A stretch of 62,582 nt of DNA, counting the filler, from Asterionella formosa (lineage: Eukaryota), in the NCBI GenBank assembly GCA_002256025.1. It is 23 parts of 23 records of this genome, joined end to end, with 100 filler letters (N's around TTAATTAATTAA, not from the genome) between each part and the next. Parts side by side here need not be neighbours in the genome. Positions count along the whole stretch, not along the records: positions 11,729 to 37,525 come from NKIB01001882.1; 22 more parts are not named here. One strand, 5' to 3'. The translations under genes and the position numbers were made by a program. Position 1 is the first letter of the stretch, and the number at the start of each line of letters is the position of its first letter. The notes beneath the pieces were generated by a model. The model made no database searches, was not told the origin of the DNA, and was given only the letters and a program-made list of their open reading frames with translations. Shown here piece after piece: positions 1,578 to 36,100 of the stretch.

Positions 1578-1677
1578 NNNNNNNNNNNNNNNNNNNNNNN
1601 NNNNNNNNNNNNNNNNNNNNNTTAATTAATTAANNNNNNNNNNNNNNNNNNNNNNNNNNNNNNNNNNNNNNNNNNNN
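1578..1677. other. Artificial contig linker (N44-TTAATTAATTAA-N44), first of 22
   Basis: Identical 100-bp spacers with stops in all six frames start at 1578, 3255, 4932, 6607, 8281, 9955, 11629, 37526, 39200, 40873, 42546, 44214, 45886, 47557, 49225, 50896, 52567, 54238, 55908, 57577, 59246 and 60915. Adjacency across them is not biological. Confidence 0.98.
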
Positions 1678-3254: not shown

Positions 3255-3354
3255 NNNNNNNNNNNNNNNNNNNNNNNNNNNNNNNNNNNNNNNNNNNNTT
3301 AATTAATTAANNNNNNNNNNNNNNNNNNNNNNNNNNNNNNNNNNNNNNNNNNNN

Positions 3355-3622
3355 ATGCATGTGAAGTACCACATAATTAACACTCGTACGTAAACGAAAT
3401 TTCGAAAAGTCAAATGAATTATTTGAAACATCAACTAATTCAGTCTCGCGTTCAAAATTCATTGTGAAAACTTCACATGAAACAGTTAAAACTTCACATA
3501 AAACAGTTAAAAGTAATCTTTTTTACGTGAAGAGTGGCATTAGTGCATGTGAAGTACCACATAATTAACACTCATACGTAGACGAAATTTCGAAAAGTGG
3601 CGTATTTCGCGTCTTAGATGTG
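3355..3622 (-). mobile_element. Terminus of a repeated element (5'-CACATCTAAGACGCG...) with ~190-bp subterminal tandem repeats
   Basis: Reverse complement of 44001-44213, with homology ending sharply at the same CAC terminus and different flanks. Internal direct repeat GCATGTGAAGTACCACATAATTAACACTC at ~3357 and ~3545. Confidence 0.65.
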
Positions 3623-5031
3623 ACATCACCTTTTAAAAATATTCAGGCGGTATGAGAAAATATTTCCTTTCAAAGATTAATTTAAGATCCGTATTGACGA
3701 TTTTGTCAGCACAAAATATGGAATGACGTCATTTTGCATGCTCCTTTCTTACCAAAATGGAGAACATCGACTGGAACTCCTTGCGTGTCGACCTGAGACA
3801 GTACATTTGAGATTTTTTCATGAAATCACCACCACAATCACAAGCCACGAAATGAGTTGAAAAAACAAGAGGAGGACCAACGGACAGATGATAACTTTAA
3901 GTGATTGATATGCAAGGTCAGAATGATTTCTTGAAGAATATACTGGCGCTATGACAGACACTTGCTTACAACCCGGGTACCTGGTAAGACTTCTACTAGG
4001 CACCAGTAATAATAAATTGAAACTCAGCACTTGCTAACGCGCCTCCTAGGAGTTACACGTGGAATTTCATAGCATAGCCTGCCTGCCGACAAGACCTTGT
4101 GCTTCCCTAGTTTAGTTAGCGTAGTAGATGATTCCCAAGCATCTTTCGCGAAAGCTGATCCTATTACATAGCCGCAGAGTTGGGGGAAACTCCGACAGCC
4201 TAGTATGTAGGAAGGCGGCACACTGCAACCCACTTTTCCTTGCACACCAGGCAAGACCGTGTGGGACGGTGAAGAGTCGTGTGGGTGGCGAACCCAACAA
4301 TTGCTTCTCAAAACGAATTCGGGAATATAACCACACAAATTCAAATCAAAGGCAATGTGCAGCATGCCCTTAGGAGCCATAGCCAACGAAAGATGTGGAG
4401 CGATGTTCTTAAGCCATAATCACCCAGTAACACTAACATGTGTCAAAGAGAAGTGCGATTTTATGTTTAGATTTAACGTGCTATACAATTTTCTTGAACT
4501 ACAAAATCAGCCAGTAACGGCAGAAATCAACCTGAGACGCGCACTTGACCTTATGTTGGATTGGGGAGCAATACAAGAAATCTGCGTTAAAATCAAGATG
4601 CTATGAAACCAGATTTGTGTCTAGCATATTTAGAACTACAAGGCGCCTTTCTCGCATGAAATACATTTCAATCCTGTTTACTTCCCCTATCATGAAAGTA
4701 TGAAGCAAAAAATACCGGACTATACTATCTTAGGAGCAAACTTCCAACAAGACAGTTCCAGAAATGAAATAGAGACGAACCTACCAAGAGGAGACCTCGA
4801 AGTTAGCAAACAGCTCTCCCGTAGGAGGATTCTCCATTGTCGCTGGCAAAACAGCATTCCTAGCCCCATCTGAAGGGTTCCGCGCACCATTCTGAGATGT
4901 CATGTCAGTCTTACAGTACCCAGGACAGCAGNNNNNNNNNNNNNNNNNNNNNNNNNNNNNNNNNNNNNNNNNNNNTTAATTAATTAANNNNNNNNNNNNN
5001 NNNNNNNNNNNNNNNNNNNNNNNNNNNNNNN

Positions 5032-6302
5032 AAACTTACCGGTACATTTTTGTCATCTTAACTTTGAGAGAAGGTAAACGTTTTGTCAGCTTTGTTCCAA
5101 CAGAAGTGAATAGGTCCAACGAGCGACAAGAGCACTTACGCAATTTGGTTTTGTTTTACATTGGTGCTCCCTAACAAGCGAAACGAGCTGTTTGATCAAC
5201 TGAGAAAAAAGGAAATGTGGCTGCGTTTAGTTAACAATTTGTTGTTGTCCTGCCTCCCAACGATTGTCATCCAAGTAGCTACCACATTGATGGCTTCATT
5301 ACCTTAAACATTCTCCATCCTTCTATTGCGCAATGTGTCGAAGTCACAATGTTTTTCGTTATGTATTGTGAAAATTTTCTTTTCTTTTAATGTGCTTTAC
5401 TACGACGTATCTTTTCATGAAGCAGCAGGCATTGTTTGTTAACATGACAGAAAGATTTCAAAAATATATATATGCCATGAATATAGAAATAAAATTTGTA
5501 AATATATATATATATTCAGTGTTGTACATTTATAAAATTCAAACGCGCTCTCGACATGGAACATCTGATATGGTTGAGATGATCATACTCACATATACAT
5601 AATTCGAAAATACTCAATGCACTATATGTCCATTGTTTTCCACGACTACGTGTACCGGAACTGTTTCTGAAATTTGTTTGCATCGATATTTTCTACGTCC
5701 GTTGAAACTAATTATTTAGACCGTTAAATAGCCGCCAGGGTTTTGGTAGCAAATTGTTTAAGCCCCTATTTTGGTTGGGAGCTCTTCATGTGTACCGGTA
5801 CATCATATGACAATAACAATATATCATATATATATACAGAGTACCAGTAGCAGGTAGTAAGTGATATACTGGGGGTAGTCGGAGTAGTACCGGTAAACTA
5901 GCAACAGAACACCATATGTTCAGGACTGTTGCTACTGCAGTGGGACAGTAAATCATCATATTTTTAGGATCGTATGATCATAAAACTAAAAACCAAAAGA
6001 ACACCATATGTTTATGACTCTTGTAATTACATTGGGACAGTAAATCATCATAGTTTTAGGATCGTATGATCGTAAAACTAAAAACAATTAGAACACCATA
6101 TGTTCATGACTGTTGCAATTACAGTGGGACAGTAAATCATCATAGTTTTAGGATTGTATGATCGTGAAACTGAAAAGCGGTACCAGTAGTCGGAGTAATA
6201 AGCAAGCAATAGAACACCATAGTAAATCATCATGGTTTTAGGATTGTATAAATAGAACACCATATACATATGTCTATGACTGCTGCTACTACAGCGGGAC
6301 AG
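5032..6302 (-). repeat. Interspersed repeat family A, copy 1, with ~85-115-bp tandem subrepeats
   Basis: Reverse-complement homologous to 30146-31462 and 41070-42025. Repeated unit GAACACCATATGTT...GGGACAGTAAATCATCAT at ~5907, 6000 and 6091. Confidence 0.85.
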
Positions 6303-6321
6303 TACCGGTAAATGAATTTAA

Positions 6322-6606
6322 GATCATCGAACTTTAAGGAAGACAACGACAACAGCTGGTCGTGTGGCCGTTGCTGGTCCACTTTTAATGGCGGAAGAAG
6401 GAAGCGACAAAAAGATCACCATTACGAGCGGAAAGAAAGAAATCGCTTACGACGCCAAGTCTGGACGATTCTTTGAGAATAACTTGCAGGAAGAAGAATG
6501 CATTCCTGACGAGGAATACTGTGTCGTCGATCCGGAAAGTGGGGAACTCATTCGTCTCACAGTAGCCGAAAAGGAGCGTATCTTTCTGGACGAGCTTCAG
6601 TCCTAC
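6322..6606 (+). pseudogene. PGRL1: PGRL1-like (PGR5-like 1) N-terminal fragment; 5' end disrupted, 3' end cut by contig end
   Basis: ECIPDEEYCVVDPESGELIRLTVAEKERIFLDELQSY resembles the PGRL1 YC...T..E.E..FL.ALQS.Y block. An upstream T/R/A-rich transit-peptide-like stretch is present, but there is an in-frame stop at 6319 and no signal peptide before repeat family A. Confidence 0.6.
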
Positions 6607-6706
6607 NNNNNNNNNNNNNNNNNNNNNNNNNNNNNNNNNNNNNNNNNNNNTTAATTAATTAANNNNNNNNNNNNNNNNNNNNNNNNNNNNNNNNNNNNNN
6701 NNNNNN

Positions 6707-8050
6707 TCTGTACTGAATATGGTGCAACTCACCGTTTGTTATGATAACTGCTGGCAGCAGTGGTCCAGCAGGAATAAGTACAACTCCGTAAGTGGACATG
6801 CTTTTTGTATTGGTGGCTACATGAAAAGATACTCGACTAGACAGTGAATTCTAATGTCTGTAATGTGTGCGAGAGGGCTAGTATACGTTACAAGAAACAA
6901 ATTAAGGAACATATTTGCCCCAAGAATCAGATAACAGGTACTAGTGTGAAGGCAATGGAACCAGAAACCGGTGGGGAAATGATGATTGATGCAGTTATGA
7001 AAAACAATGTTATCTACTATACAATCATCTGTGACGATGATTCTACTATTATAGCTGTTTCTAAGTGGTCCTATAAGGAGTTACTAAAACTGCAGCCATC
7101 CTTCCAAAGGCCAAGAACATTGAAAGCATTAAAAAATCGGATAAAGGATGCCTTCCACTGACTGTACCCAAACATAAATCTCTTTCTGACCCATCCCACA
7201 GAGTAGTATCATGGGTCCTTGTTCGCCGCCCTGCTTTTCTGAAATCCAATGGCCCGGTCTCCCTCAAGTGTCCTTCAACAACAGATTATTTTCGGTTAAA
7301 AGTTTGTTACTATGGGGGCAGTTGGATATAAAAATCGAAACATTTTTCTGACCGATTTTTGTAGTTCCTCCAAGGCACCAATCAACCATTTATTGGGCTG
7401 TCATGATTACTGCTCGGAGACATGGTGGTGCCCTGTAAAAACAGATGCATGGTTAGTAACAGAAAATATCATTACAAGGAAAAGGAAAAAATTTACGAAT
7501 GGTTAATGTTGAATGTTGCAACGAAAGTCGAAGGCGAAAGGCTTATATCATTGCATCATCCCTTTGACGCACAGAACAATGAGGCAATGAACAATGCAGC
7601 AGTGGTCGTGGTGTCGCAACGATGTCTGAAAAACAAGGTGCTTTCGGGATCCAGAGGCTTTCAATATCGAGTGGCTTTGGTTGCTGGGCAACCCAACACA
7701 ATACAGATGGGACTTATATGAGTAATGTCGAATGCAGATGCCAGCATTGCAAGAATCCTTTGGGAGACTAAAGGAAAAGAGACATAGTGACAATGGAGCC
7801 TATAAAGTGCAATTCAAATGAAAGAGGAAATGAATCAAAAAAATATATGCACCATGATTTGAAACAATCAAACAAGAAAGGCAAGAAAACAAATCAGGTT
7901 AGACCTACAGTGCTCGTGTTGCTCTTAGAAGGGAAAATCAGGAAACAAGAAGAAAAGGAATGAATGTCTACAATCATTGTGGCCACAATGATCATCAAAG
8001 AAAAGGCGGCACACTCTGTCCATTCAATGCAGGCAAAGTACCTTCTAGTA
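6707..8050 (+). mobile_element. Decayed Kolobok-type DDE transposase
   Basis: Across broken frames: YNSVSGHAFCIG, C..C...HICPKN..G.S.KAME, IICDDDST, HLLGCHDYC...WCP, H.FDAQNNEAMN, and a C-terminal CGHNDH...CPFN knuckle. Several stops and frameshifts. Downstream DNA (8150-8280) is homologous to 45185-45325 in a TTAA-flanked TIR element. Confidence 0.7.
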
Positions 8051-8380
8051 AAGGTATGCAGACAATCACTGATGATCAGCTACCTAGTACTGGGGATATT
8101 ATACTGGTCAACACCCAAGGAAATGTTAAACCATGTATCCAATGTGCCCAGCATCGGGTTGCAAGACCATGCAAAACAAGCCAATAAAATGTCAGTAAGT
8201 AATTGAACTTTACCAATCATAATATTTATAGTGAAGCGGGCACTTACAATGGAATTTTTTGTACAGGCGATTCTAGGACGNNNNNNNNNNNNNNNNNNNN
8301 NNNNNNNNNNNNNNNNNNNNNNNNTTAATTAATTAANNNNNNNNNNNNNNNNNNNNNNNNNNNNNNNNNNNNNNNNNNNN

Positions 8381-9540
8381 GCTCGTTGTGTTTGTACTTG
8401 ACTTGGCAGCTGTCAGCCAAGAGCAGCCATGGCATGTCACCATTTATTGTCTATACAAGTTTCGAATGCGTTCAGCTATGATATCTTTTGCTCCCCCCTC
8501 CTAAACACTATCTCACCACCCTTGTCGTAGATTTTTCTTTATCCTTCGGCTTCACAGGCCCAGGTTACTCAATGCCTTCATCTGCAAGGAGTTCAGCCAA
8601 GCAGGTCCACGTTGGCGTCAAGAAAACCTCAACCCCGATTTTCCTCACATGCTCCACCCATTGACTTCTTCATTGATGAAGTCGAGGTAGCTATACTGAC
8701 GACATCAGGTGGCGCAGGCTTGTGTATAGATTGATGATGCTGAAAGCATTGCTTCCTTTTCCGGTAGGTATCTATTTGTCAACATTGTTTGGTTCAATCC
8801 ATTCTTGTTCCCGCAAGGAGACCAGAAGCAATTATCCCTTTACTTCTCCTCCCAAGAACCTTCATTTCTCTTTCACAATTGTCCTGATGATGTTTGCAGA
8901 GCACCATTTTTAGTTCCCTTGTTTTGATTTTTCCACTGGTTTCGATCCCTTTTGCATTCAAGTCAAGAAACAAGCAACTCATTGAGATTTCTGGAGGTCT
9001 CGGTCAGTGGCACCATAAAACAACAATCAACAGATCATGGCGGCTGTTCTACATTTTCTGTAGCAAGTGACATTCAAAAAGGGACTGGGATCATTGGGAA
9101 GAAAAATTAGTAGGATTCTCTGTGTTTGCCCCCGCCCGTTTGGCAGCCATTCTACCATTGCTTCCTCTGAATCAATACTAGCTAGTAGTATAGCTAATGA
9201 AAACCGTAATTAGATGAAATGTGACTTCCGGTTTCCAATATTTTACATTGTTGCACTACTGAAACTTGAATCCATAAATGGGCATTCAACTTGTGCTTGC
9301 TTCTTGCATTTTTGCAGTATAGACTGGCTGGTGGGCGATAGGCCAAGCAAAGTGTCTCGCTTTTCATGAACATCGACAAGGTACTAGTGCTTTTGTCGAG
9401 GTTTGTGTCTAAATCCAACTGCTGCCATCCATTAAAATATTCCAGATACATCAAAGAATAGCTACGCTCCTGTCTTCAAAGGTAAGGAACTAGTACGATG
9501 ACAAAGAAAATCTAATGAGACATAAAAATTACGAAACCAG
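8381..9540 (-). mobile_element. Decayed IS630/Tc1-like transposase remnant, copy 1
   Basis: Near-duplicate of 42868-44000. The minus strand keeps LADEGIE* (cf. ELAGEGIEYSWG) and DFINEE blocks recalled from diatom IS630/Tc1-like transposases. Many stops. Confidence 0.55.
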
Positions 9541-10169
9541 AATCACTCTATTACTATAAATAGACGGCACAGTCTAATGCTTCTTTGTGCATATCGCCTG
9601 CTATGCTGCGTTTCAATTCTAGATGTATTACGTTCTTCTTGTTAGAGAGACGATGTTACGGAGAAGTAGATTGTGCTGTTCTATAATGGATGTTGTTTAG
9701 CTATGATTGATTTTGTAACACTGATTGATGCTCTGGTGACAGACCGGCTGGACATTTTCGTCTTGTGTGATGAGCCATTTCGTTTTCATTGGATTTCTTT
9801 TCAAGCTCTTAACGGATTGCATAGTACGAACATACTGTGCAATGTAGATGATGATTCATCGAAGACATATGATGACTTGAACGACAAATGAAGATTTTAT
9901 CACAAAATCTCGTTCCTCTCGACATGGCTGCTTTGTCGTTGTTGCAAGAATCAGNNNNNNNNNNNNNNNNNNNNNNNNNNNNNNNNNNNNNNNNNNNNTT
10001 AATTAATTAANNNNNNNNNNNNNNNNNNNNNNNNNNNNNNNNNNNNNNNNNNNNTAATGGAAGTAGTTACCAGCAATTATACAGTACTACCGGTAGGCCA
10101 TATGAATTTTGGTCGATATGTCTATATAAATAAATGTATGATTTCGACCATTTGAAAAATTGGTGATGA

Positions 10170-11250
10170 CTCCCGTTTATTAAGGGGCTTAATTAAATCA
10201 GCCACTGACTTGTAGGTACAGTACAAGAATTGACACAAAACAAATTGAAATAACTCAACAGGTTGTGGAAAACTATGAACTCATCATGCATTGTATTATA
10301 TATTTGAATTATGTATAATCAAAATTGATATTAGTATACACATGATGTGCCATATAGTGAGCGTGTTTAAAACTATGCAAATGTTCAACTATGTATACAT
10401 TTAAACTTCTTACAAATCTTTATATATATATATATAGTATTCATGGCTGAAACATTTGAAATCATGTTTTCATGTTCCTTGTCATGCATACACTTAGCTC
10501 CTGAAATGAAAAATCATTACACATGATGATGCGGAAAACGAAAGTGATAATACAGCACAATGATACTTGCGGCTTAGAAGAGAAGGGCGGAATCAATTGA
10601 TGGTAAGTCAAGAGCAAATGCCTTTCATGTTCCTTGTCATGCTGCATCCACTTCCTCAAATGAAGGATCTCAAGCAACACATGATGCGAAAAACTGAAGT
10701 GACAATACAGCACGATGATACACCATGCGGCTAAGAAGGAGTGAATATGATGGAGAAGGGCGGAATCAACAAGCTCTGCATACTAGCATCACGGTTTGTC
10801 AAGAGCAAATGCCAGGATGATCCATTGCTGGGATTACAAATACGGAATGACTTGTCCCCTTTCAGTGATTCAATAGCTCCTTTTCGATTTGGTGGCTGGC
10901 CAACCATCAATGTGGACAAAAGAAATCGGTAAGCTCTATCAGCTATCTTTGGATCAATCCACAACTGTTAGAAAAACTGACACATGTGTGTTGCTTTTTT
11001 CAGGATAATGGTAGACAAACAGTATTTGTAAGTTACAAACAGCAGTGTTGGAGCCCATTTATTGATCGATACTTTGCTTCTCATTCAATCTTCAACTGAC
11101 ACATTCTTTTACAGAAATATGCATCAGTTACTTCCTCAATTTGTGGTAAGTGAAGCAAGATAGAAGCGAAATGCATGTTGTTGTGTAAGCAAAACATGAA
11201 CAGCTAACAATGAATTGCTTCTCTTGTTAGTATGGCTGATTGGAACAACG
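10170..11250 (+). repeat. Diverged copy of repeat family A
   Basis: Blocks such as AAGGGGCTTAA, GTGGAAAAC...CATGCATTG and ATATGCATCAGTT...TGTGGTAAGTGAAGCA...AGCTAACAA match 30476-31410 in the same order. Confidence 0.6.
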
Positions 11251-11728
11251 AAACAGATTCAATAGTAATAGGAAAATGCGTGAATGCAAACTCAGATCCA
11301 TCAGGAGTAAGAAATGGAACAAAGCAGGGGAACAACGGCAAGGCAACCAGTACAACAACCTTCAGAATTGGATTGGGGGGAATGTGGAAGTGAAAGTGAA
11401 AGCTGAAGCACCAATCATTGCAATGAGAGAATTGTAGAACATTCTGTAGTCACTCAAGATATAGAATCATAAAACCATTCTTAAATACAGTTCTAAATTT
11501 CGATCAATTTCATCCTATTTTAGACAGTGATATCGATGAGAATTACAATCATGCTAAGATAGATGTATGACAAAAGTATACACATTATATGCCCATGTTT
11601 AACTAATTATATGATGCAATGGTATTATNNNNNNNNNNNNNNNNNNNNNNNNNNNNNNNNNNNNNNNNNNNNTTAATTAATTAANNNNNNNNNNNNNNNN
11701 NNNNNNNNNNNNNNNNNNNNNNNNNNNN

Positions 11729-13381: not shown

Positions 13382-15313
13382 TTACAAAAAATTTCTCTCG
13401 TCTAATGTTTCTCCAAAGTACGCGAACATTTTACGGATACTTTCTCTTGATGTCTTGGGATCCTTTTGAAAAATTTCCATGGCCTTGCAAAATTCAGGCT
13501 CATCCAATGCAAAGTTCACTTCATGCGATCTCATTTGTTCCAAGATTGTGACGTATCGTTCAGCTTCCCATAAAAGATCTGAGGCTAGCGCCACTTCCAA
13601 CACCTTGAGGTGACAGTAGTGATTAACAATAACTTGATATTGATTGTACATGTCTTGTAAAAACGTAATAGCACCAGCCACATCTCCAGCATTGATCATC
13701 CCATCTACCATGGCACGGACATTTGATCGTGTCACCAAACCTTTATTCTCCACCTGACGAAAGTACTCTTTCATAGTAACCACATCTCCCACCTTGGCAA
13801 GTCCATCCAATAGGAGCGTATATGAGTACGCATTCGGCTCAATGCCCTTGGAGGGCATGGTATCATCCACAATTTGTATCGCTCTCCACAGGGCACCTCG
13901 GTAGCAGCATGCTTTAATCAATAGATTCCAACTCGTCACATCCAATTCGATGGGATCATGTCCACATGCTCCATGAGTCAAGGAATCAGCAAACGCAAAG
14001 GCTGCTGTTAGGGGAAGTGACCAATCTTGTTTTTGTTCCCATTCCATTTTGGTCATTCGCGATTCACCAAATTTAACCCCTGCTGCTTCTGATGGGATTT
14101 TTTCCAATGGAGCTGGTGGTCTCCATATTAATTTCGCCCGATGTTTGCGATTTTGAAAGACAATGGCATCTTGTGTTGTCAACAGCTCATCAGGAGACAA
14201 TTTCAATGGATCAATCAATCCACGGACAGTAGTACCGGTAGTACTGCTGACGTTGTCATGTTCATCGTTCTGTAAGTCCATGGGCAACAGGTACATTTTC
14301 CAAAAATGATGTACCGCTTTGCCAGTCCTACCAGTACTGGCATAGGTTTCCAGCATTCGATTGGCAATTTGTAATGTTACTTTGACACCACGATCATGCA
14401 TATTAAGTAAAATGGCATCTAGCCATCGTGTTGGGTTATCAATAGCTGGTTGGAATGCATCACCCGCATAAATATTTCGTGATTGTATTAGTTCCGTCCC
14501 CGCTGATTTGATGGCCATGACAGCGTATAGGAATTCATTAGGAACATGAGGTTCGTACCCCCGATTCCTCCGTAGTGTTAATAAGGCTTGGGTCCTTCCA
14601 ACATTCCCCGCCTTTCCATTGGCTTCCAACAATCGGTAACTAAGTAATTCTGTGAGGGGTGTTTTGGCAATACTACCAATGAGTCGTTCCAATTGTCGTA
14701 CGTAATTGGACAACACCATGGGTGTGACATGTTGTCGAAGGATCCCCTTGATGGCACGTTCAGCAATTTCCGGTGATACCAAATGAATGGCGTCTGTTGT
14801 TGTTGTTGTTGTTGTTGTTTGATTATGGACCTCACCATCATCATCTTGTTGAGTATGAGTATGAGTGTGCATATACTGCAAGTGTTGCAAGTATAACAGA
14901 GAAACAGAACGACAAAAGTCCACTTGCCACCGATCTGTCCCTTGATTGTATTCAGCAGCGGTCCGAATGTCTTGTGCTAATTGCTTGGGCCTAAAGTCTG
15001 ATTCTTGTAATGGTGGGGGTGTTTCATAAAGGATCCTGTTGTTGTTGCTGTTGTTGCTGCTGCTGTTTGTCGTGGACAGACCCCGAATGCTTCTGCTGCA
15101 GCGTGACGAAACGAGGACTGAAACTGATCTCTGACGCTGAAATGTCAGATTCTCCAACAGCATCCTTCTTGATGAGACCAAGACACGATACATCGAGAAT
15201 CGTGATGCGATGCTAGGAAAGGACCTCTTGAAGGTAGATATGGTGGTGCTGTTCATGATTGTTGGATGATGTCTATAGTAGTCGGTACAGTGAAGTCGTC
15301 GTATTGTCGTCAT
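13382..15313 (-). CDS. Pentatricopeptide repeat (PPR) protein, probably organelle (mitochondrion) targeted
   Basis: Intact 643-aa ORF with PPR motifs (DVTSWNLLIKACCYRG...MPSKGIEP, NAYSYTLLLDGLAKVGD...) and an R/S-rich, acid-poor N-terminus. Confidence 0.85.
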   Translation of the reverse strand: MTTIRRLHCTDYYRHHPTIMNSTTISTFKRSFPSIASRFSMYRVLVSSRRMLLENLTFQRQRSVSVLVSSRCSRSIRGLSTTNSSSNNSNNNRILYETPPPLQESDFRPKQLAQDIRTAAEYNQGTDRWQVDFCRSVSLLYLQHLQYMHTHTHTQQDDDGEVHNQTTTTTTTTDAIHLVSPEIAERAIKGILRQHVTPMVLSNYVRQLERLIGSIAKTPLTELLSYRLLEANGKAGNVGRTQALLTLRRNRGYEPHVPNEFLYAVMAIKSAGTELIQSRNIYAGDAFQPAIDNPTRWLDAILLNMHDRGVKVTLQIANRMLETYASTGRTGKAVHHFWKMYLLPMDLQNDEHDNVSSTTGTTVRGLIDPLKLSPDELLTTQDAIVFQNRKHRAKLIWRPPAPLEKIPSEAAGVKFGESRMTKMEWEQKQDWSLPLTAAFAFADSLTHGACGHDPIELDVTSWNLLIKACCYRGALWRAIQIVDDTMPSKGIEPNAYSYTLLLDGLAKVGDVVTMKEYFRQVENKGLVTRSNVRAMVDGMINAGDVAGAITFLQDMYNQYQVIVNHYCHLKVLEVALASDLLWEAERYVTILEQMRSHEVNFALDEPEFCKAMEIFQKDPKTSRESIRKMFAYFGETLDERNFL

Positions 15314-20432: not shown

Positions 20433-23400
20433 TGAACAATTAAGGTTGGCGCAAAGTACATAGCGATACGTAGCAGTACGGTACAGCAGTGACTAGTCGT
20501 TATATCATGCAGACATTGGCGATAGAGTGGAAGTGTCTGTTAGTTAGCGATAGCAAAAGCAAGAAGTGAGTGCTCGATCTTGCTCACTCTTTTTAAAATT
20601 AATCCTTTTAATACATCTTTACCCTTATGCTCTTTACCTAAGTAAGGCACTATGTCGGACTTCACACAGCGATTATGATTTAGTTTATAAGACCCATCGT
20701 AAAAAGCGAGAGCGATGCTAGCAGAAAGAGGATAAAGCAAGCGAAAAAAAAGGAATCGAATAGTGAATGCGATGTTGTCGAAGTGTCGATATTTCCAGAT
20801 ACACCAGAGACAGCTGGATGCAGGCTCTGGTAGCACAGCATGATGACAACAGGATAGAGGAAGGGAATCCTTCTCAATCCCTAGCGCAGCAAGCAGGCAA
20901 AGGGAGACTGATCATCTCATCAGGCATTAGCGAAACGTGAAGCCCCTCATGTACTATCATTTTATTCATTTACAGAACAGAACAACAAGATGGCCGAAGT
21001 GGCAGTTGCTCCGATTGTGAATGAAGGTTCACCAATGATGTTGATAGGCATTGATAAAGTACTCCAGGTGATTGAATTTTAATCAGAAGCCGAAAGGGCC
21101 AGCATCATGCAGGCAGGGTTGGGCCGATTCGAAGATTTCCGTTACCTTGTGGAGAAGGATGTCTGTGATATGGCGGATGAGTTTGGCAAGCGTACCCAGG
21201 CAAATGGAAGGATTGTCATTGGACTAGGATGCACTAAGAAGCTGACTGGTGTTATGCATTGGGTACAGGACTGTCATAGAGCAAGCAATATTCCAAACCA
21301 TGAAAATTTTGATGAAGAAACGATGTATGCAGCCCTCAGTTTGGCTCAAATTCGTAAATCCGATATTGAATTGGTTACCACCAACTCAAAGGCAGCTGAT
21401 CCAGGAAAATTCAAGGATGAACGTAAATGGTCTGAATGGGAGAAGGCGTTCATTAACTACCTATCGGTCATCCCTGGGGTAAATGGCATTCCATTGTCAT
21501 ATGTTGTGTGAGAGCTAGAGAACCCCACCCGAAAGGATGATTAATCAAGCATTGCTTAATGGAGTCCTAGTTGCAGAGTACGCAATTGCCAACCAAATAG
21601 ATGAGGAACCAGCTTTTGCTTGGTGGGTTGGAAATTTAATAAGGAAGCGCAACAGGATCCTATCCAAAATTAAATCTAAGTACTGGCAGCAAACGCATAA
21701 GTTTGGAATTCGTATTCCAAAATCAGTGGAACAAGCGATTGTAATTGACAAACAGAATGGCAATAGTCTCTAGTGGGATGCAATTTGCACAGAGATGAAA
21801 AACGCGAGGCCAGCATTTGAGATGTGGGAACAGGATAAAAAGAAACTGCCTCCAGGGTACCAGAGAATCAAATGTCATTTTATATTTGACATTAAGATGG
21901 GCGAGACCTTCAGACGAAAGGCAAGATTAGTTGCCAATGGGAATGAAACAGAGGCCCCAGCAGCACTGACATACTCCTCGGTGGTTTCGAGGGATTCAGT
22001 GACGATTGCCCTCTTAATTGCATCTCTCAATTACCTTGAATTACTGGCATTTTACATCCAAAATGCATACTTGACTGCTGACTGCCGTGAGAGAATATAT
22101 ACTATTGCAGGACCAGAATTCGGATCAGAAGCTGGAGGTGTCGAAAAGCATTGTATGGATTTAAGTCTAGTGGTGCGGCCTTCCGAGCACATTGGGCTGA
22201 GGCCCTGTATAATTCGAGCTATATGCCAACAAAAGCGGATCCAGATGTATGGATTTGACCAGATACCAAACCCAATGGGTTTGAGTACTATGAAATGATG
22301 CTTATTTATGTTGAGGATATCTTATGTATATCCCATGATCCACATGCAACTATGAAGGGTATCCAAGCAGCATTTAAATTGAAAGACGACAAGATTGAAA
22401 AATCAGAAAATTATCTTGGGGCACAGCTCACACAAAAGATCATTAATGGAATGGAATGCTGGACAATGTCATCGGAGCAATACGTTACAGCATCCATAGC
22501 AAATGTCGAAGCAGCATTGAAGTCAAGCGGTCAGAGAATACCATCCAGATGCACCACACCAATTCAAGCCAATTATCGACCGGAGCTGGACACAACAGCG
22601 GAGCTAAAATTAGAAGGCATCCGCTATGAACAAGAGATGATTGAAGTCTTGCTGTGGGCGATAGAACTCGGTAGGATTGATATTGCAATGGAAGTGTCAA
22701 TGCTGTCTTCTCACCTTGCGTTACCTCGAGAAGGACATCTTCAACAGGTTTATCATATCTTCGGATACTTGAAAGCAAGACCTAAGCGAACGCTGGCATT
22801 TGATCCCCAGCACCCTGATATTGATGAATCGAGATTTGTGAGGTGTGATTGCATGATTTTTATCGAGGGGCAAAAGAGCCAATTCCAGGGGACATGCCAG
22901 AAGCCCGTGGAAATGTGGTGTCAACACATTGTTTTGTTGACGCTGATCATGCAGGTAATTGTATAACAAGACGCTCACAAACCGCAATCCTACTCTTTGT
23001 TAACAGGGACCAGTAGTGTGGTACAGCAAACGCCAAAATACGGTCGAGACATCGACATTTGGAAGCAAGTTTGTTGCCATGAGGATCGCTGTGGAGTTAG
23101 TGGAGGCTCTGCGCTACAAACTGAGAATGTTTGGAATACCAATAGAAGGGCCAACCAACGTCTTTTGTGACAACGAGGCAGTTACCAAGAATACTATTTT
23201 CTCGGAATCTACGCTTAAGAAGAAACAAAATTCAATTGCTTATCATCGTTCAAGAGAGGCAGTAGCAGCAGGCACAATCAGAGTGACAAAAGAGGATGGA
23301 CAGACAAACTTGGCTGATGTGCTGACTAAACCACTGGCACAAGCAACCAAAGATTTTTTATGTGACCGATTCATGCATTGACATTGAACACAGCCTAGGT

Positions 23401-23774: not shown

Positions 23775-24155
23775 AAACTACCGTAAAACCTGGTGCCTTG
23801 TATCCCTCAATGTACACACCCACGTAGAGGGGATTACAAGACATCGGAACTTTTTTGATTGTCAGACACTTTATGAAAAAACCAACTTCACCACCATTTT
23901 ATCCATAGTCTATAACAAAAATAGTAATATTAAAAGATATATTGTTTTAGGTTCAATCGGCTTCTAGGATCAATTGAATTTCTATTTTTGGAGCACTGCC
24001 ATGCCCGAATTTCGTCATGACCTTAACAGAAATTTCTAGAGTGTATACAACTTGTACCTGATTCTACGATGTAATAAATTGTGTAGGTTCCACAAATCTG
24101 ATTGTGATAGAAATTGAGGTTAGCCAACCAAATCATTTTCTACGGAATCATCAGC

Positions 24156-25382
24156 ATGACAACGAAAAAATATCTCTGCATCAGGCAAAAGAAAAATAGT
24201 GTTGCGGAAGCATACAGCAAGCCCAACAATATCAAGGCAACCGCCAGAGCATATTTGGTTCAGCCAAAGCAGATCCGGAGCTGGAAGTCCATCCTGGATG
24301 GTATAATGGTTGTGGTTCCAGCGGAGGTGGCGGAGATTCCTCTGCGGGAAGAAGGTTTGATTCAGAGGCAGGTGTTGATGAAAAAAAAATCGCTCACCCA
24401 GGCCACTCTCCAAAAAGTGCTGCTGAGTTTAAAGGATTGAAGACTCTTTTCGACCAGTTGCGGCTTCAAGATAGGGCCTGCACCACCAGGATGCTCAGTG
24501 TTGAGCTGAAAAGGCAATCTGGGAACGAAAATGTGTCGCTGGAGGCACTTGAAAAACGAATCAAGCGCTGGCTTGCCTGTAAGGACATTGTCATTAGGCG
24601 TGTGACTCATGTCGCCCAAAATACAAGGCTGGACCAGGAGACAATTCAATATTTTGTTCCCTACATCAACCATCAAATTGCTGCGTTCGAATTTCATTGC
24701 TGGAAACATTGTCGATATTGATGAGACAAACATCAATTTTGACATGTCTGGATCAAGAACTTTGGCAACCCGAGGCGAAAGGACCATTGGGCTTCGAACA
24801 ACAGGAAATTCGAACCGTTCCACTGTGTTGTTAGGGGTGACAATGAGTGGTGAGAAGTTGCTACCATTCGTTGTATTTACAGGAACAAGGAATGGACGTA
24901 TTGCCAGGCAATTGGGATTACTAGACAACAATCAACAACTTTTTCCGGTCGGTATTAATTACGCTTGTCAACTCAAAGCTTGGGTTGATACAGACATATT
25001 TTTACAATGGATCGAAAAAGTTTGGCAACCATTTGCGTTGGGAAAAGGCGGTGAGCCTACTCACCTTCTTATGGATGATTTTACAGTCCACAAGGTAGGA
25101 CGTTGTGTTGATGCATTTAAAAATTGAGGCACTGAGGTTGATTTCGTCCTCCCAGGCTACTCATCTAGACTTCAAGTGTTGGATATAGGAGTTAATAAGC
25201 CCTTCAAGGACTACATGAGAGGATCTTGGGAAGACTACATGGTTGCCAATGTGGATAATACCAAGGTGCAAAGGCACCAGATTGCACAATGGGTAGAAAA
25301 GGCATGGGTTAGAGTCTCAATTGAAACAATCACCAATACCTGGAAGAGCATTGGATTTGAGGGCTTTGCTGCTGTTAACTAG
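24156..25382 (+). pseudogene. pogo/Tigger-type transposase (HTH + CENP-B-type HTH + DDE_1), frameshifted
   Basis: NIKATAR...VQPKQIRSWK helix-turn-helix, then IDET, TVLLGVTMSGEKL.PFVVF, KAWVD, LLMDDF.VH and LQVLDIGVNKPFK. 35 residues separate the second and third Asp. Two frameshifts plus a TGA at 25125. Confidence 0.9.
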
Positions 25383-25621
25383 TGACTTAGGATTGGATTA
25401 TTTGATAATCTATTTTAACATTTAATTTTAGTGAAACAATCATTATCGTCAATTAGATTCAGGATGGCAAACCCTAATAGGCAAATAAATTAAGCTGATG
25501 ACTACAAAAAACCCAAATCGAAGTGATTCTAATGTTGAAAATGCTAATTTCTAATACAATTATTAATATTCTAGTGTAGATTGGTTGAAGGATTTGAAGG
25601 CTTGTCCAGTTTTTGTAACAT

Positions 25622-26014
25622 CTATTCCTGAATCTGGATGTCCTCAAGAAGCCGGAATGAACAAACTCCAAGGTTATTGTGGCTTTTTGCCCTTTTGGCA
25701 GCATTTTCACTAGAGTCATAGATTTCAATAACTTGAGCAAACTTGTTGACAAACTTGTCACTTGTTTTCTTCAAAGCTGCAATATTCTTGCCAAGGAAAC
25801 CAACCGTGCACAGTTCCGTCCCATCAAGGATCAGAACAGCCTTGATACCTGCCTGATCAACTCCATCAATCAGGACCACTGCTGCCTTGAACCGAACACA
25901 ATCATTCGGCCTCACAATTGCCCCACAGCAGGCATGCTGCTCACAGCTTCGTCCATTGGTGGTACCTCTGAGGCCAAGGATTTCGCCATCACGAATGTCA
26001 TCCACAATTATCAT
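25622..26014 (-). CDS. Intact 130-aa transposon passenger protein, HIRAN-like with a CxxHxxC motif
   Basis: Clean ATG-to-stop ORF inside the pogo TIRs. Pattern EILGL...NGRSCEQHACCG...VRF...IKAV...DG...CTVGFLG resembles the HIRAN beta-barrel (V.G.....AI.V....VG[YF]LP). Confidence 0.65.
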   Translation of the reverse strand: MIIVDDIRDGEILGLRGTTNGRSCEQHACCGAIVRPNDCVRFKAAVVLIDGVDQAGIKAVLILDGTELCTVGFLGKNIAALKKTSDKFVNKFAQVIEIYDSSENAAKRAKSHNNLGVCSFRLLEDIQIQE

Positions 26015-27299
26015 GTTGCCTATATGTGACGATATTTTACACGTGATGATACTTTACAGGGAACAGTAGGGTACCGGTAAAATACAAAAATACGTACCAA
26101 TAAATAGAACACGTTTATTTGGTGTTTTATTTTCTGTACACAGGAAACATTTGGTAGTGTTGCGCCAGATGTACAAAGGGGATTACAGGTATCTGGGGGG
26201 ATACGAGACACCAGGTTTGAGGTAAATGTATTTTGAAATGTAATTTCGATTGAATGATGGCAACTCCTACATGTTTCAGAAATGAATTGTTCTTTGCTCC
26301 TTGGAGGCGAGGTTCTTCATAGTTCTTCCTACAGCTGTAGCGAAGTAGATTACATCATCTTCCTTGTAACATATATATATACATCTAGCCTAGACAGATT
26401 ATAGGACATAGATGTTCTTTTCCACAATGATGATTGGATTGTTCCTCAATCCTTTGGACAGAACTGATTTGTCTCTCCAATCATTTGTAGTTCAAGTTTT
26501 ACCAAACTTGTTTGGCAAACATAGGGAAAACTTAATATAATTCGCCCTTCAAACATTGTTTGTCTGCAGGTTATCAATTGTGGTACATAATTGTGCATTG
26601 TTCCTGTCTGCAAATAAAAACAATCATATTCCTTTGATGCATAATAGGATTGTTATCATCCGATAATAACTTTTTCGGTATTTCATCTAATGATTTTGAT
26701 AAATGCCCTTGTAATTTAAAAAGTAAGCCTTTTGACTATGTATAGTATTTAATTAGTATATGTATTGTTCCTATTAGATTCCTGTATTTGAATTTCTTGG
26801 TAGGATAATGTACCAGCGAAAGTCATGTAATTTGGCTCGTCATTTCCATCCGTCATCACTCCGATTTTTGCAACAACAACGAAATACTAGCGATGACAAG
26901 TGGAATGATTGTTTGCGATAACAACGTCTTCAATTGTTGGTCAAGTGATCAATATCTCTTTGAGTAATCGTCATATGCAGTGAACCTATGTTCATAATCA
27001 TTCAATGAAGAGTTTACAGAGAAGAAATCATTTGAACTCGGAATGGTTTGTCCGCACACAGCGCACATAGTAAATCCGTTTCGTCGACCACCAGCATGGC
27101 ATGACAATCTCGCCAATCAACTCGTTAACAAACACATTATACTTGTTCTTATTGACATTTTCAATTCTTACATGATACTACATCTACAATTGAGATTCAG
27201 CATAGAAGTAGGAGATACGAAAATGTAACAGACTGCTATCCACATAGTTATAGTTATAGAATGATTCTGATGACAATTTATTTTTCATATTACTCGTTT

Positions 27300-34139: not shown

Positions 34140-36100
34140 TACTAAGCCATAATAATATTGTAAAGTCTGACTCAACTTTTTGAAATTTGGGACCCATCAT
34201 GCAACCCATGGCGAAGATTTTTAATAGACATAAGCCGGAATTTCCTGCCCGCACATTTTTGTTAATGCTGTTAGTCAAGACCTGTAAGATGCCTTAGGAA
34301 TGTTACGATCACTTTGTCTTTCTAGATGTCCATTGATCAATCTTGCTATCATTTCAAAGTTAATGTTGGAAAAAATATTACGATAGGTCTTGTCTGGTGT
34401 TGCCAATGTAGGTACCTTTTTGTTCTGAACGACTATCACCCTCACCAATTCTGGTGACAATTCTTTTCTTGGACGTTCTGTTTGTCCATTGGTCTCTTGT
34501 TGAGGTTTATCTGGACATGCTCATTTGTTGAAGAATTGTATCCAAACTTCAGCATCAGATCTGTAATTGTACAGTGACTCTAGAATGTATGGCATCATTC
34601 CAATTAGAAATTGGTGTAAAGTTTCGAAAGGTGTAGCACCATGGACACCCTGTACATCACGGAAATTGTGATACATAATGCCGGAATAATGGTGTTTTGT
34701 GATATTTGTCGAACCATTCATTCATCTTTCGTTGCGTATTTTTGGCGATTTTGCTTGATGTCAAAGGATGAAGGTAAATTTGTTTACTTCCCATCAGAAT
34801 GATTACTGTGATTTAGCACCCAGTCCAAATATGGTTGAATGTATGTCACAAGCCGTGGTTCGCATTTAGCTTCTGCCTGGATTCTTATCCGAGTTAGGAG
34901 TATTAACTGGACAATCTCTACAGGAATGACGTCGCTCTGTATTTTCCATTCCCTCCTCTAAAACCACATATTTTGTTGTGATCGTCTGTATCACCCATTA
35001 TCATATAATGTTGAAAGTAAACCATCTTTCTACATTATCCATGAACAAACAATTCATAACACTTGTTGGGTTCGCGAAATGGTTCCAATAAAAAGCCTGT
35101 GGATCGGTCATATTGGTCTAAACGTTCTTTGTTTAAATCTGATCGATTTGAAGTTTTTTCCAAGTCCCTAACTTCTACGTCAGGTAACAACGACACCAAC
35201 TGCCATGCTTCCACCTTCTTCCTGCATTCAATACTAGACAAATTGAGCATTGCTATTAGCAATGGATGTTCAGAATGTTTTTGCATTTTGTCAATCGCGG
35301 ATCCATCACAAAAAAGTATGATGCCCACAAATAGGTGGCCGTTTTTGAGTTTCCCGTTTTCTGAAGCTGGAGAATCATCAAAAGCAGAATGAAACCATTC
35401 TGCATAAGTTGCTTCATCGTACATGCGTTTCCCACAAGTTGTGAGTTTTTCTTATGCGTAGTAGAAAAAATGTTGCATGATGTCAGGATCTCATAACATG
35501 GAACCCAGTAAACCAACAGGATCAAAATAATGTAGAGTGCATGGCAGTTGAAATCCTGAGCTAGGTTCACTCTGCCATTGTTTTACCAACAACTTTCCAC
35601 CACTAAGCGACGGAGGAAACGATGAGTTCATATGTTTTTAAAATTCTGGTGTGATGGTACACGATCCCATTTTCTGTAAATAACCAATGTCACAGGCCTT
35701 GAAAGCATAATTCATTATATCATCAAAGAATAAAGGTGGCAAGAATTTCTCGTTGAGAAATAACATAAGTTCCAACTCCATGGGATCCATTGCTAATGTT
35801 TCCCTTCTGGGAATACCAAAATGTTTTGGGAAAAGAATATGTTTTGCTTGATCCAACAAAAATCCTTCATCATTCATAGTTTCCAACCTACTGTATCTTT
35901 TTCCTAAAATCGAATCAATGTGTATAGTCTCTTCTTGTTCCTCTATAGCGGCAATATCCCACCACCCATCTGGGAAATTATCCTTTTCTTTTGGGAATGA
36001 CACATAAACAGATGATTGTGGAATGTAATCAGATCCAGTTCTGCCGTTGATATCCTGATTAGAAAATGTTACAGAACAAAATCGCGACGAGGTCACGATT
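34140..36100 (-). mobile_element. Decayed Plavaka/CACTA-like transposase
   Basis: YDEATYAEWF, GIILFCDGS..D....HSEHP....LNL....R....AW..VSLLP, IMGDTD, GVHGATPFETLHQFLIG and RQSDRNIPK motifs across broken frames. Confidence 0.7.

What the first reader, a model, noticed from the sequence alone, without database searches (positions are those of the whole stretch)
23781..26222. Two-gene pogo transposon carrying an intact HIRAN-like, putatively metal-binding passenger gene
Seen: TA-flanked TIRs enclose a pogo transposase (+) and a convergent 130-aa ORF (-, 25622-26014). The transposase has two frameshifts and a stop, while the second ORF is intact. Known: pogo/Tc1-mariner elements normally encode only a transposase, and HIRAN domains (HLTF/Rad5) bind free 3'-OH ends of ssDNA. 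Inference: ORF2 (EILGL..NGRSCEQHACCG..IKAV..CTVGFLG) is a HIRAN-like fold with an added CxxHxxC(+C) site. It may be a dedicated accessory factor that binds 3' ends at excision breaks or stalled forks, which would define a little-described two-component transposon. This is the best candidate for a new system in the window.
Basis: partly seen in the sequence, partly recalled or inferred. Interest (0 to 1): 0.8.

Follow-up and report, generated by a model that had tools for sequence, protein, structure and literature searches.

The report
Two-gene pogo transposon with HIRAN-like partner
This is a decayed copy of a cut-and-paste pogo transposon from a protist-type genome whose lineage always carries a second, strongly conserved small gene for a HIRAN-like, probably zinc-binding protein, which is unusual because such transposons normally encode only their transposase.

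Summary
Window 23781-26222 is a TA-flanked element with terminal inverted repeats. It carries a pogo (Pfam DDE_1) transposase broken by two private frameshifts and one TGA, and a convergent intact 130-aa ORF2.

ORF2 is a real gene of a large unnamed family: 1189 clusters at E<=0.001, with no Pfam, NCBIfam or PHROG match. In 33 metagenome loci that encode relatives (98-33% identity), 24 have a pogo transposase tail-to-tail downstream. That is 23 of the 25 loci with at least 500 bp of room, and none has it in another arrangement. Both genes lie inside TA-flanked repeats in three divergent lineages.

The two proteins co-diverge (r=0.96, 55 non-independent pairs). ORF2 is under purifying selection (dN/dS 0.08-0.19), stronger than the transposase in the one pair compared.

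A confident model (pLDDT 92) has HIRAN domains as its three nearest solved folds (Z 6.9, 6.1, 5.1). A profile-profile test against bacterial HIRAN gives P=5e-5, against at least 0.08 in controls. C24, H27, C30 and C69 are each kept in 109-112 of 113 members.

The function (DNA-end-binding accessory factor) is inferred, not shown. I found no description of this in the papers I searched. Verdict: new variant of a known kind.

The parts
23779..23780 (.). TA target-site duplication, left copy
   Evidence: Read. The same TA|CC(G/A)TAAA junction is seen in L001, L002, L008 and L021.
23781..23815 (+). Left terminal inverted repeat (starts CCGTAAAACCTGGTG)
   Evidence: the repeat finder I1 arms 23786-23815 / 26189-26218, 30 nt, 80%. 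Similarity to L002 starts at 23781.
24156..25382 (+). pogo-type (DDE_1) transposase pseudogene, ATG at 24156, TAG at 25380-25382
   Evidence: Pfam DDE_1 on two pieces. 89-94% identical by tblastn to the intact 423-codon frame of L002. The DDD motifs DIDETN, LLMDDF and LQVLDIGVN are visible in the translations.
24381..24382 (+). Frameshift 1: two extra A in an A-run
   Evidence: Alignment with L002. Contigs of 4 of 4 RNA-library runs lack these 2 bases (table 4).
24696..24696 (+). Frameshift 2: one extra A
   Evidence: Alignment with L002. One base is missing at 24696/24697 in contigs of 4 of 4 runs.
25125..25127 (+). In-frame TGA (TGC Cys in the intact relative)
   Evidence: window codon TGA, L002 codon TGC.
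25383..25621 (.). 239-bp spacer between the two convergent stop codons
   Evidence: Coordinates.
25622..26014 (-). ORF2, 130 aa plus TAG: HIRAN-like protein with C24-x2-H27-x2-C30 and C69
   Evidence: Open frame. 47 homologues and 1189 clusters. AF2 pLDDT 92.3. HIRAN is the nearest fold. hhalign P=5e-5. dN/dS 0.08-0.19.
26189..26222 (-). Right terminal inverted repeat, slightly degraded at its tip
   Evidence: The tip reads CCTCAAACC where the left end has CCGTAAAACC.
26223..26224 (.). TA target-site duplication, right copy
   Evidence: Read.

Best explanation
The stretch is a dead copy of an autonomous two-gene DNA transposon of the pogo superfamily. Intact relatives carry, between TA-flanked TIRs that start CC(G/A)TAAA, a DD35D DDE_1 transposase. 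They also carry, convergent to it and about 150-220 bp inside the other end, a gene for a protein of about 130 aa.

Shown here: the second gene is a long-standing, co-diverging, purifying-selected part of the element. Its protein is a single compact domain whose nearest known fold and only detectable remote sequence relative is the HIRAN domain. The loop between the first two strands carries a nearly invariant Cys-His-Cys cluster that, with Cys69, looks like a structural zinc site.

Inferred: ORF2 is made from its own promoter next to the TIR and acts in trans on DNA during transposition. Like HIRAN domains, it would bind single-stranded DNA or a short 3' overhang. Such overhangs are produced by Tc1/mariner-type staggered cleavage, both on the excised element and at the donor gap (this chemistry is recalled, not checked here). 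ORF2 would protect or hand over these ends, or steer donor-gap repair.

My odds: real two-gene element family 0.9. HIRAN-related fold 0.7. Zinc site 0.6. DNA-end or ssDNA binding that helps transposition 0.35.
For: Element anatomy and defects.

Family size: 47 homologues at 97-39% identity. 1189 clusters at E<=1e-3 and 514 at E<=1e-10.

Linkage: 24 of 33 loci have the transposase downstream on the opposite strand, 23 of the 25 with at least 500 bp of room, and 0 of 33 in any other arrangement. TIRs enclose both genes in L002 (93%), L021 (97%) and L008 (94%), with TA flanks. The end motif TACC[GA]TAAA lies 36-217 nt upstream of the ORF2 match in 19 of 33 loci. All 5 loci with an intact transposase frame of 395-438 codons also have an intact ORF2.

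Co-divergence: Pearson 0.96 and Spearman 0.88 over 55 pairs, with ORF2 at least as conserved as the transposase in most pairs.

Selection: L019 vs L020 ORF2 dN/dS 0.084 (41.5 synonymous and 19.5 non-synonymous changes, Fisher 2e-18), against 0.172 for their transposases. L013 vs L014 gives 0.19 and L013 vs L019 gives 0.09.

[quoted passage not shown] VIA-align against 48161 chains puts 3k2y_A first (Z 6.9, 92 aligned, 3.4 A), then HLTF HIRAN 4xzg_A (Z 6.1, 88, 4.1 A) and the Rad5 HIRAN region 6l8o_A (Z 5.1, 87, 3.9 A). Foldseek gives HLTF HIRAN chains probability 0.90-0.98.

Profile-profile: hhalign of the family against 30 bacterial HIRAN stretches gives P=5e-5, score 32.8, ORF2 32-80. Controls: reversed 0.14 and 0.19, an unrelated profile 0.29, best of 60 column shuffles 0.081.

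Conserved residues: C24 in 109, H27 in 110, C30 in 112 and C69 in 112 of 113 members.
Against: No sequence-level membership in HIRAN. 0 of 113 members hit Pfam PF08797 at E<=0.1. Nothing was found in the PDB by HMM.

Structural scores are middling. No Foldseek E<=1e-3, TM 0.40-0.50. Z is below 8, a range the tool warns can reflect only a common arrangement. hhalign probability is only 68%, and the global mode gives P=0.006.

The HLTF pocket loop is replaced by the Cys/His insertion in the hhalign alignment, so the 3'-end pocket may not be kept. Rad5 HIRAN domains bind ssDNA with no preference for a free 3'-OH (passages of PMC7804152), so the fold does not predict 3'-OH specificity.

I could not read model coordinates, so the zinc-site geometry is unchecked.

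Linkage was tested only on 33 loci found with two peptide patterns from the closer relatives. Many of these are near-identical copies. The context of the other ~1100 clusters is unknown. Two loci with room (L013, L030) lack a transposase match.

13 of 33 ORF2 copies are interrupted.

Transcription is not shown. RNA-library contigs cover both genes, but the tool notes DNA can be present in such libraries.
Confidence: 0.7

Rival explanations
1. ORF2 is the element's sequence-specific end-recognition or recruitment factor. It would work like the Myb-like second protein of PIF/Harbinger elements (role recalled), binding the TIR or subterminal DNA or the transposase rather than free DNA ends.
For: The two-gene layout is conserved and the genes co-diverge, as expected if the partner must match the ends or the transposase. 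ORF2 always sits next to one TIR. There is a conserved basic helix, K107/R108/K110 in 75-76 of 113 members.
Against: There is no Myb/SANT or other known dsDNA-binding domain. The nearest fold binds single-stranded DNA. The transposase already carries its own N-terminal HTH-like region, though the hits are weak.
Confidence: 0.15
2. ORF2 is a regulator that limits transposition or host damage, such as an inhibitor that caps ends or titrates the transposase, and is kept because it lowers the element's cost.
For: Internally deleted copies that have lost the transposase core still keep an open ORF2. L001 is one, and the same 579-bp deletion (24807-25387) appears in contigs of two RNA-library runs. 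ORF2 is more constrained than the transposase in the pair compared.
Against: Nothing direct. Self-inhibitors are usually truncated transposases, not separate folds (recalled). The same data fit a helper supplied in trans.
Confidence: 0.1
3. ORF2 is captured host cargo with no role in transposition: a one-off passenger, or a gene useful to the host.
For: The wider family (1189 clusters) has not been examined for context, so free-standing host copies may exist. Two loci, L013 and L030, show no transposase.
Against: Linkage holds from 98% down to about 33% ORF2 identity, with the same orientation and spacing. The two genes co-diverge. All 5 intact-transposase elements keep an intact ORF2. L013 still has the terminal motif 184 nt upstream of its ORF2, so it is probably a deletion derivative.
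Confidence: 0.04
4. ORF2 is not a gene at all but a chance open frame, or the antisense frame is the real one.
For: The antisense frame inside ORF2 is also largely open: 118 of 130 codons in the window and 63-131 in seven relatives.
Against: dN/dS is 0.08-0.19 in the ORF2 frame. There is a large family with invariant Cys/His/Gly positions. The fold prediction has pLDDT 92.
Confidence: 0.01

Closest known systems
pogo superfamily of IS630-Tc1-mariner DNA transposons (Pfam DDE_1; families Passer, Tigger, pogoR, Lemi, Mover, Fot)
   Same: DDE_1 catalytic domain with an invariant D...D...D triad, 35 residues between the last two. Short TIRs and TA target duplication. 2.2-2.7 kb length. pogo elements are reported from Stramenopiles and Rhizaria (passages of PMC7386202).
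   Different: A second, unrelated, conserved gene sits on the opposite strand inside the TIRs. In the passages I read, PMC7386202 describes 'one or two ORFs encoding transposases', not a separate protein. I did not determine which named pogo family this transposase falls in.
HIRAN domain (Pfam PF08797; HLTF, Rad5, bacterial and phage proteins)
   Same: The same count of secondary-structure elements: six strands plus capping helices. HIRAN domains are the nearest solved structures. There is a significant profile-profile match over the core strands, including the ...A-I-x-V... and G-[FY]-L-x-R stretches.
   Different: No Pfam hit. The loop after strand 1 holds a CxxHxxC insertion and, with C69, a putative metal site. 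The protein is free-standing and transposon-encoded, not fused to an SNF2 ATPase. The DNA-binding mode is untested.
Two-protein DNA transposons such as PIF/Harbinger (transposase plus Myb-like protein); comparison recalled, not tested
   Same: An autonomous element needs, or at least always carries, a second small DNA-related protein gene between its TIRs.
   Different: A different transposase superfamily and a different accessory fold. No Myb/SANT domain was found.
TBE and Tec elements of ciliates (Tc1/mariner relatives with three ORFs)
   Same: They show that IS630-Tc1-mariner elements can carry extra genes (passages of PMC7325037).
   Different: Those have DD34E transposases and long TIRs, with a zinc-finger protein or a recombinase as extra genes. 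Here there is a DD35D pogo transposase and one HIRAN-like gene. I did not compare ORF2 with the small TBE ORF.

Membership tests
pogo superfamily (DDE_1 transposons) | DDE_1 (PF03184) catalytic domain above the curated cut-off | tested here: met
   Window pieces score 41.3 and 32.2 bits against a cut-off of 22. Intact relatives L002, L004, L019 and L020 score 79-82 bits over profile positions 2-177.
pogo superfamily (DDE_1 transposons) | Catalytic D, D, D triad with about 30-36 residues between the second and third | tested here: met
   D188, D307 and D343 (L002 numbering) are invariant in 29 aligned transposases. The corresponding motifs are present in the window translation.
pogo superfamily (DDE_1 transposons) | TIRs and a TA target-site duplication | tested here: met
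   L002's 3' flank reads CA instead of TA.
pogo superfamily (DDE_1 transposons) | N-terminal CENP-B/psq-type helix-turn-helix DNA-binding region | tested here: inconclusive
   Most hits are below cut-off: HTH_Tnp_1, CENP-B_N, BrkDBD and HTH_Tnp_Tc5 at E 1.9e-5 to 8.5e-3. Only HTH_Tnp_1 in L019 and L020 just passes, at 25.2 and 25.0 bits against a cut-off of 24.1.
HIRAN domain (PF08797) | Match to the Pfam HIRAN model | tested here: not met
   0 families for the window protein at E<=1. 0 of 113 family members hit PF08797 at E<=0.1.
HIRAN domain (PF08797) | Remote homology by profile-profile comparison | tested here: inconclusive
   hhalign against 30 bacterial HIRAN stretches gives P=5e-5, probability 67.6%, 43 columns. 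Controls give 0.081-0.29. The HIRAN profile held bacterial sequences of one phylum only.
HIRAN domain (PF08797) | Six-stranded beta-barrel capped by two helices | tested here: met
   The model has strands 10-13, 39-49, 52-63, 66-74, 92-98 and 117-123, and helices 76-88 and 105-113. The definition comes from passages of PMC4666394. This rests on a predicted structure, not a solved one.
HIRAN domain (PF08797) | HIRAN structures as nearest structural neighbours | tested here: inconclusive
   The top three of 48161 chains are 3k2y_A (Z 6.9), HLTF 4xzg_A (Z 6.1) and Rad5 6l8o_A 181-290 (Z 5.1), with the next at 4.5. Z below 8 is in the tool's caution range. That 3k2y is a HIRAN protein is recalled, not checked.
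HIRAN domain (PF08797) | Pocket that holds a 3' dinucleotide (Tyr pair in HLTF) and binding of a free 3'-OH | not testable with these tools
   No residue-level structural alignment or coordinates were available. In the hhalign alignment the loop is replaced by the Cys/His insertion. Rad5 HIRAN domains lack 3'-OH preference.
Two-component transposons with an accessory DNA-binding protein (PIF/Harbinger type) | A second conserved gene inside the TIRs that co-evolves with the transposase | tested here: met
Two-component transposons with an accessory DNA-binding protein (PIF/Harbinger type) | Accessory protein is Myb/SANT-like and the transposase is of the PIF/Harbinger type | tested here: not met
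   No Myb/SANT hit. The transposase is DDE_1.

The most novel reading that the evidence does not exclude
A widespread, undescribed class of two-component pogo transposons in aquatic protists encodes its own HIRAN-derived, zinc-stabilised DNA-end reader. This protein would capture the short 3' overhangs made by the transposase, on the excised element or at the donor gap, and so control end protection, integration or the choice of repair. It would be the first cut-and-paste eukaryotic transposon known to bring its own DNA-end recognition module, and a new branch of the HIRAN fold with more than a thousand sequence clusters.
Probability: 0.3. Interest if true: 0.8.

Novelty: new variant of a known kind. 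Interest (0 to 1): 0.62.

Why it matters
Tc1/mariner/pogo elements are the textbook case of a transposon that needs only its transposase. A lineage that has kept a second gene under stronger constraint than the transposase implies a step in the transposition cycle that the transposase alone does not cover in these hosts.

If the protein reads DNA ends as HIRAN domains do, it gives a simple, separable system of two small proteins and short TIRs. That system could be used to study how excised ends and donor gaps are handled. It also gives a name and a testable function to a family of over a thousand unannotated protein clusters seen in freshwater and marine metagenomes, and extends the known reach of the HIRAN fold beyond SNF2 remodellers and phage or bacterial proteins.

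Tried and rejected
- No whole genome is held for the window, so copy number and empty sites could not be examined.
- ESM Atlas gave no usable hit.
- NCBIfam and PHROGs scans of 29 members gave only sub-threshold noise.
- PDB sequence searches with the single protein, A1 and A2 gave nothing relevant.
- A search for longer, fused forms (553-2000 aa) found none. The tool itself calls this weak evidence.
- No relatives were found in viral contigs or prokaryote genome contigs with the patterns used. A2 was too diverse for that tool.
- Cluster look-ups of 20 representatives gave only 'hypothetical protein' or no name.
- Complex prediction of ORF2 with the L002 transposase and a zinc ion returned no verdict (score 0.01, mark 0.34). 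This says nothing either way, and the alignments I supplied were not used.
- BFVD fold search found no match at E<=1e-3. Two proteins named HIRAN appear among the weak rows.
- I tested whether the two shared in-frame stops of the L006-L012 subfamily reflect a ciliate code. Under table 6 the transposase stays fragmented, so these are decayed copies.
- The regularly spaced N runs are not borders of a tandem repeat. The 1577-bp stretch between two of them matches nothing else in the window.
- RNA-library contigs cover both genes, but they cannot show strand, level or true transcription.
- Earlier findings of this scan held nothing similar.
- Literature searches that found no description of a pogo element with a HIRAN-like or other second gene: HIRAN+transposase (whole word, 12 papers), HIRAN+'transposable element' (2 papers), pogo+diatom+mariner+transposase (2 papers), pogo/second ORF/TIR, pogo/ORF2/DDE_1/accessory, and pogo/'two open reading frames'/protist. 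Subscription journals and Repbase reports are not in that library, and supplements were not opened.
Full report
**What is in the window.**
Bases 23781-26222 are bounded by TA dinucleotides (23779-23780 and 26223-26224). They carry inverted repeats at both ends: arms 23786-23815 and 26189-26218, 30 nt at 80%, which by eye run to the very ends.

On the + strand three overlapping frames together spell a transposase. Pfam assigns 24606-25127 and 25128-25382 to DDE_1 (E=1.6e-10 and 1e-7). The N-terminal piece gets weak helix-turn-helix hits.

On the - strand, 25622-26014 is an open 130-codon frame ending in TAG. The window holds only this one copy, and no whole genome is held for it.

Neighbouring frames encode a PPR-repeat protein, a uricase, a copia-type reverse-transcriptase fragment and a Plavaka transposase fragment. 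This is a eukaryotic nuclear region with several mobile-element remains.

**The copy is dead, but intact relatives exist.**
A 2730-bp metagenome contig (L002) holds a 94.6% identical element with a single 423-codon transposase frame. Relative to it, the window copy has two extra A at 24381, one extra A at 24696 and TGC>TGA at 25125-25127.

Contigs from all four RNA-library runs that I laid also lack those extra bases, so the lesions are private to this copy.

Similarity between the window and L002 starts exactly at 23781 and stops at 26218, with unrelated flanks. These are therefore independent insertions of one mobile unit.

Three lesions in about 1230 bp predict roughly one in the 393-bp ORF2. 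Its intactness in this copy alone is therefore not significant (my arithmetic).

**ORF2 is a real, widespread, unnamed gene family.**
- A word-indexed search found 47 proteins at 97-39% identity, most about 130 aa, with no name and no Pfam domain.
- A profile search of 1.84 billion representatives found 1189 clusters at E<=0.001, 514 at E<=1e-10 and 32 at E<=1e-30.
- Twenty representatives looked up carry 'hypothetical protein' or nothing.
- Pfam finds nothing for the window protein at E<=1, and no HIRAN hit in any of 113 members at E<=0.1.
- NCBIfam, PHROGs, PDB sequence searches and the ESM Atlas add nothing.

**The two genes travel together.**
A scan of metagenome contigs with two conserved ORF2 peptides returned 33 loci encoding relatives at 98-33% identity. 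I searched them with five intact transposases from those same loci.

- 24 of 33 have a transposase match downstream of ORF2 on the opposite strand.
- None has one upstream or on the same strand.
- Of the 25 loci with at least 500 bp downstream, 23 have the match. The misses are L013 and L030, and the L028 match is short.
- Of the 8 loci with less room, 1 has it.

These loci are not independent. Several are near-identical copies, and I count roughly eight to ten lineages.

Inverted repeats enclose both genes in three divergent lineages: L002 (29 nt, 93%), L021 (33 nt, 97%) and L008 (18 nt, 94%). Their junctions read TA|CC(G/A)TAAA. That terminal motif lies 36-217 nt upstream of the ORF2 match in 19 of 33 loci. 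My rough estimate from motif length and total locus length is that fewer than one such motif would be expected by chance.

Five loci have an intact transposase frame of 395-438 codons, and all five also have an intact ORF2. Overall ORF2 is open through its matched part in 20 of 33 loci and interrupted in 13.

The intact transposases give full-length DDE_1 hits (E about 1e-22). An alignment of 29 relatives has an invariant D188, D307, D343 triad, that is DD35D. One named relative at 36% identity comes from Plasmodiophora brassicae.

**Co-divergence and selection.**
Across 55 pairs among 11 loci, ORF2 identity and transposase identity track each other (Pearson 0.96, Spearman 0.88). The pairs are not independent. 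ORF2 is the more conserved of the two in most pairs.

Nei-Gojobori estimates on strict coding sequences:

| Pair | Gene | dS | dN | dN/dS |
|---|---|---|---|---|
| L019 vs L020 | ORF2 | 0.73 | 0.061 | 0.084 |
| L019 vs L020 | transposase | 0.55 | 0.095 | 0.172 |
| L013 vs L014 | ORF2 | 1.52 | 0.286 | 0.19 |
| L013 vs L019 | ORF2 | 1.86 | 0.174 | 0.09 |
| window vs L002 | ORF2 | 0.047 | 0.017 | 0.36 |

The L019/L020 ORF2 figure rests on 41.5 synonymous and 19.5 non-synonymous differences (Fisher 2e-18). The window/L002 comparison has only 4 synonymous and 5 non-synonymous differences (p=0.12) and is uninformative. More distant pairs are saturated at synonymous sites.

The antisense frame within ORF2 is often open as well. 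However, the selection signal, the invariant residues and the fold all belong to the ORF2 frame.

**What the protein looks like.**
With the 113-sequence alignment, AlphaFold2 gives pLDDT 92.3 and pTM 0.85. The 29-sequence model gave 78.3. The model has six strands and two helical segments. [quoted passage not shown]

An exhaustive structural comparison with 48161 representative chains gives these top hits:

| Chain | Protein | Z | Aligned | rmsd |
|---|---|---|---|---|
| 3k2y_A | Lactobacillus protein (I recall it is a HIRAN member; not checked) | 6.9 | 92 | 3.4 A |
| 4xzg_A | human HLTF HIRAN | 6.1 | 88 | 4.1 A |
| 6l8o_A (181-290) | HIRAN region of K. lactis Rad5 | 5.1 | 87 | 3.9 A |

The next hit, an OB-type domain of a capping enzyme, scores 4.5 and rank 50 scores 2.6. 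Foldseek finds nothing at E<=1e-3 but gives HLTF HIRAN chains probability 0.90-0.98 with TM 0.40-0.50. These scores are middling, and the tool warns that Z below 8 can reflect a common arrangement.

**A sequence-level test.**
I collected 30 bacterial HIRAN stretches. Pfam PF08797 matched in 66 of 301 genomes of one phylum. I then compared their profile with the ORF2 family profile using hhalign. The results were:

- P=5e-5, score 32.8, probability 67.6%.
- 43 columns aligned, joining ORF2 32-80 to the HIRAN core.
- Controls: reversed target 0.14, reversed query 0.19, the unrelated transposase profile 0.29, and a best P of 0.081 among 60 column shuffles.
- The smaller A1 profile gave P=0.0075 and the global mode gave 0.006.

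A permissive alignment extends over ORF2 3-120. It places the first strand (EIVGL) on the HIRAN first strand, puts conserved E54 opposite the conserved Asp of the HIRAN D-x-N-A-I stretch, and shows the CxxHxxC segment as an insertion of about five residues.

I read this as remote homology to HIRAN being more likely than not. It is not membership of the Pfam family.

**The Cys/His cluster.**
In 113 members, C24 is kept in 109, H27 in 110, C30 in 112 and C69 in 112. G14, G21, R22, G31, F73, Y99 and G116 are kept in 102-111, and E54 in 87. A C-x2-H-x2-C loop plus a Cys on the fourth strand is a plausible structural zinc site. I could not read coordinates to check the geometry, so this is inference.

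**How it most likely works.**
Shown: a pogo lineage in which a HIRAN-like gene is an old, selected, co-diverging component placed next to one TIR.

Inferred: the protein acts in trans on DNA during transposition.

HLTF's HIRAN domain holds a single-stranded dinucleotide and needs a free 3'-OH. Rad5's HIRAN domain binds ssDNA and overhangs without that preference (passages of PMC4666394 and PMC7804152). Tc1/mariner-type cleavage leaves short 3' overhangs on the excised element and at the donor gap (recalled). An element-encoded reader of such ends could protect them, hand them to the transposase, or bias repair of the gap.

Rivals:
- A TIR- or transposase-recruiting partner.
- A self-limiting regulator. 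Deletion derivatives that lost the transposase core keep ORF2: L001 is one, and the same 579-bp deletion appears in contigs of two RNA-library runs.
- Mere cargo.

A complex prediction of ORF2 with the transposase gave no verdict.

**Novelty.**
In the passages I read, a survey of pogo describes 'one or two ORFs encoding transposases' (PMC7386202). A survey of Tc1/mariner mentions extra ORFs only for the ciliate TBE and Tec elements (PMC7325037). Six literature searches found no pogo element with a HIRAN-like or other separate second gene. Repbase reports, subscription journals and supplements were not seen.

I rate it a new variant of a known kind. The main open points are the context of the other ~1100 clusters, zinc and DNA binding, and any effect on transposition.

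Noticed in passing
window 1578-11728 and 37526-61014: Pairs of 44-base N runs recur about every 1673 bases: 7 pairs, then 15 pairs. The 1577-bp stretch between two pairs matches nothing else in the window, so this is regular masking or gapping, not a tandem repeat.
   Followed up: partly
window 21083-22963 (+) and 35038-35451 (-): There are other mobile-element remains near the finding. One is a copia-type reverse-transcriptase fragment (RVT_2, E=1.3e-5, below cut-off). The other is a Plavaka (KDZ-type) transposase fragment (E=4.3e-7).
   Followed up: partly
L006-L012 (ORF2 at e.g. L008:2363-2683): A subfamily of seven loci shares the same two in-frame stops in ORF2, after CVQH and before DKFAQ. 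One of these positions is Q in a related protein. Their transposases are broken or truncated. L009-L011 are elements of about 1.17 kb between end motifs. Reading with the ciliate code does not restore the transposase, so these look like amplified dead or non-autonomous copies.
   Followed up: partly
window 24807-25387; L001:943-945: The same 579-bp internal deletion of the transposase core is present in metagenome contig L001 and in contigs of two RNA-library runs (X19, X22). ORF2 stays open in L001. This is a spreading deletion derivative that keeps the second gene.
   Followed up: partly
window 25661-26029 (+): A 122-codon open frame runs antisense to ORF2. Similar long antisense open stretches occur in relatives (63-131 codons). 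This is probably a by-product of codon usage, since selection acts on the ORF2 frame.
   Followed up: partly
window 13385-15313 (-) and 51278-52450 (+): Long intron-free frames encode a PPR-repeat protein and a uricase. Both are ordinary host genes and are consistent with a eukaryotic nuclear origin.
   Followed up: no
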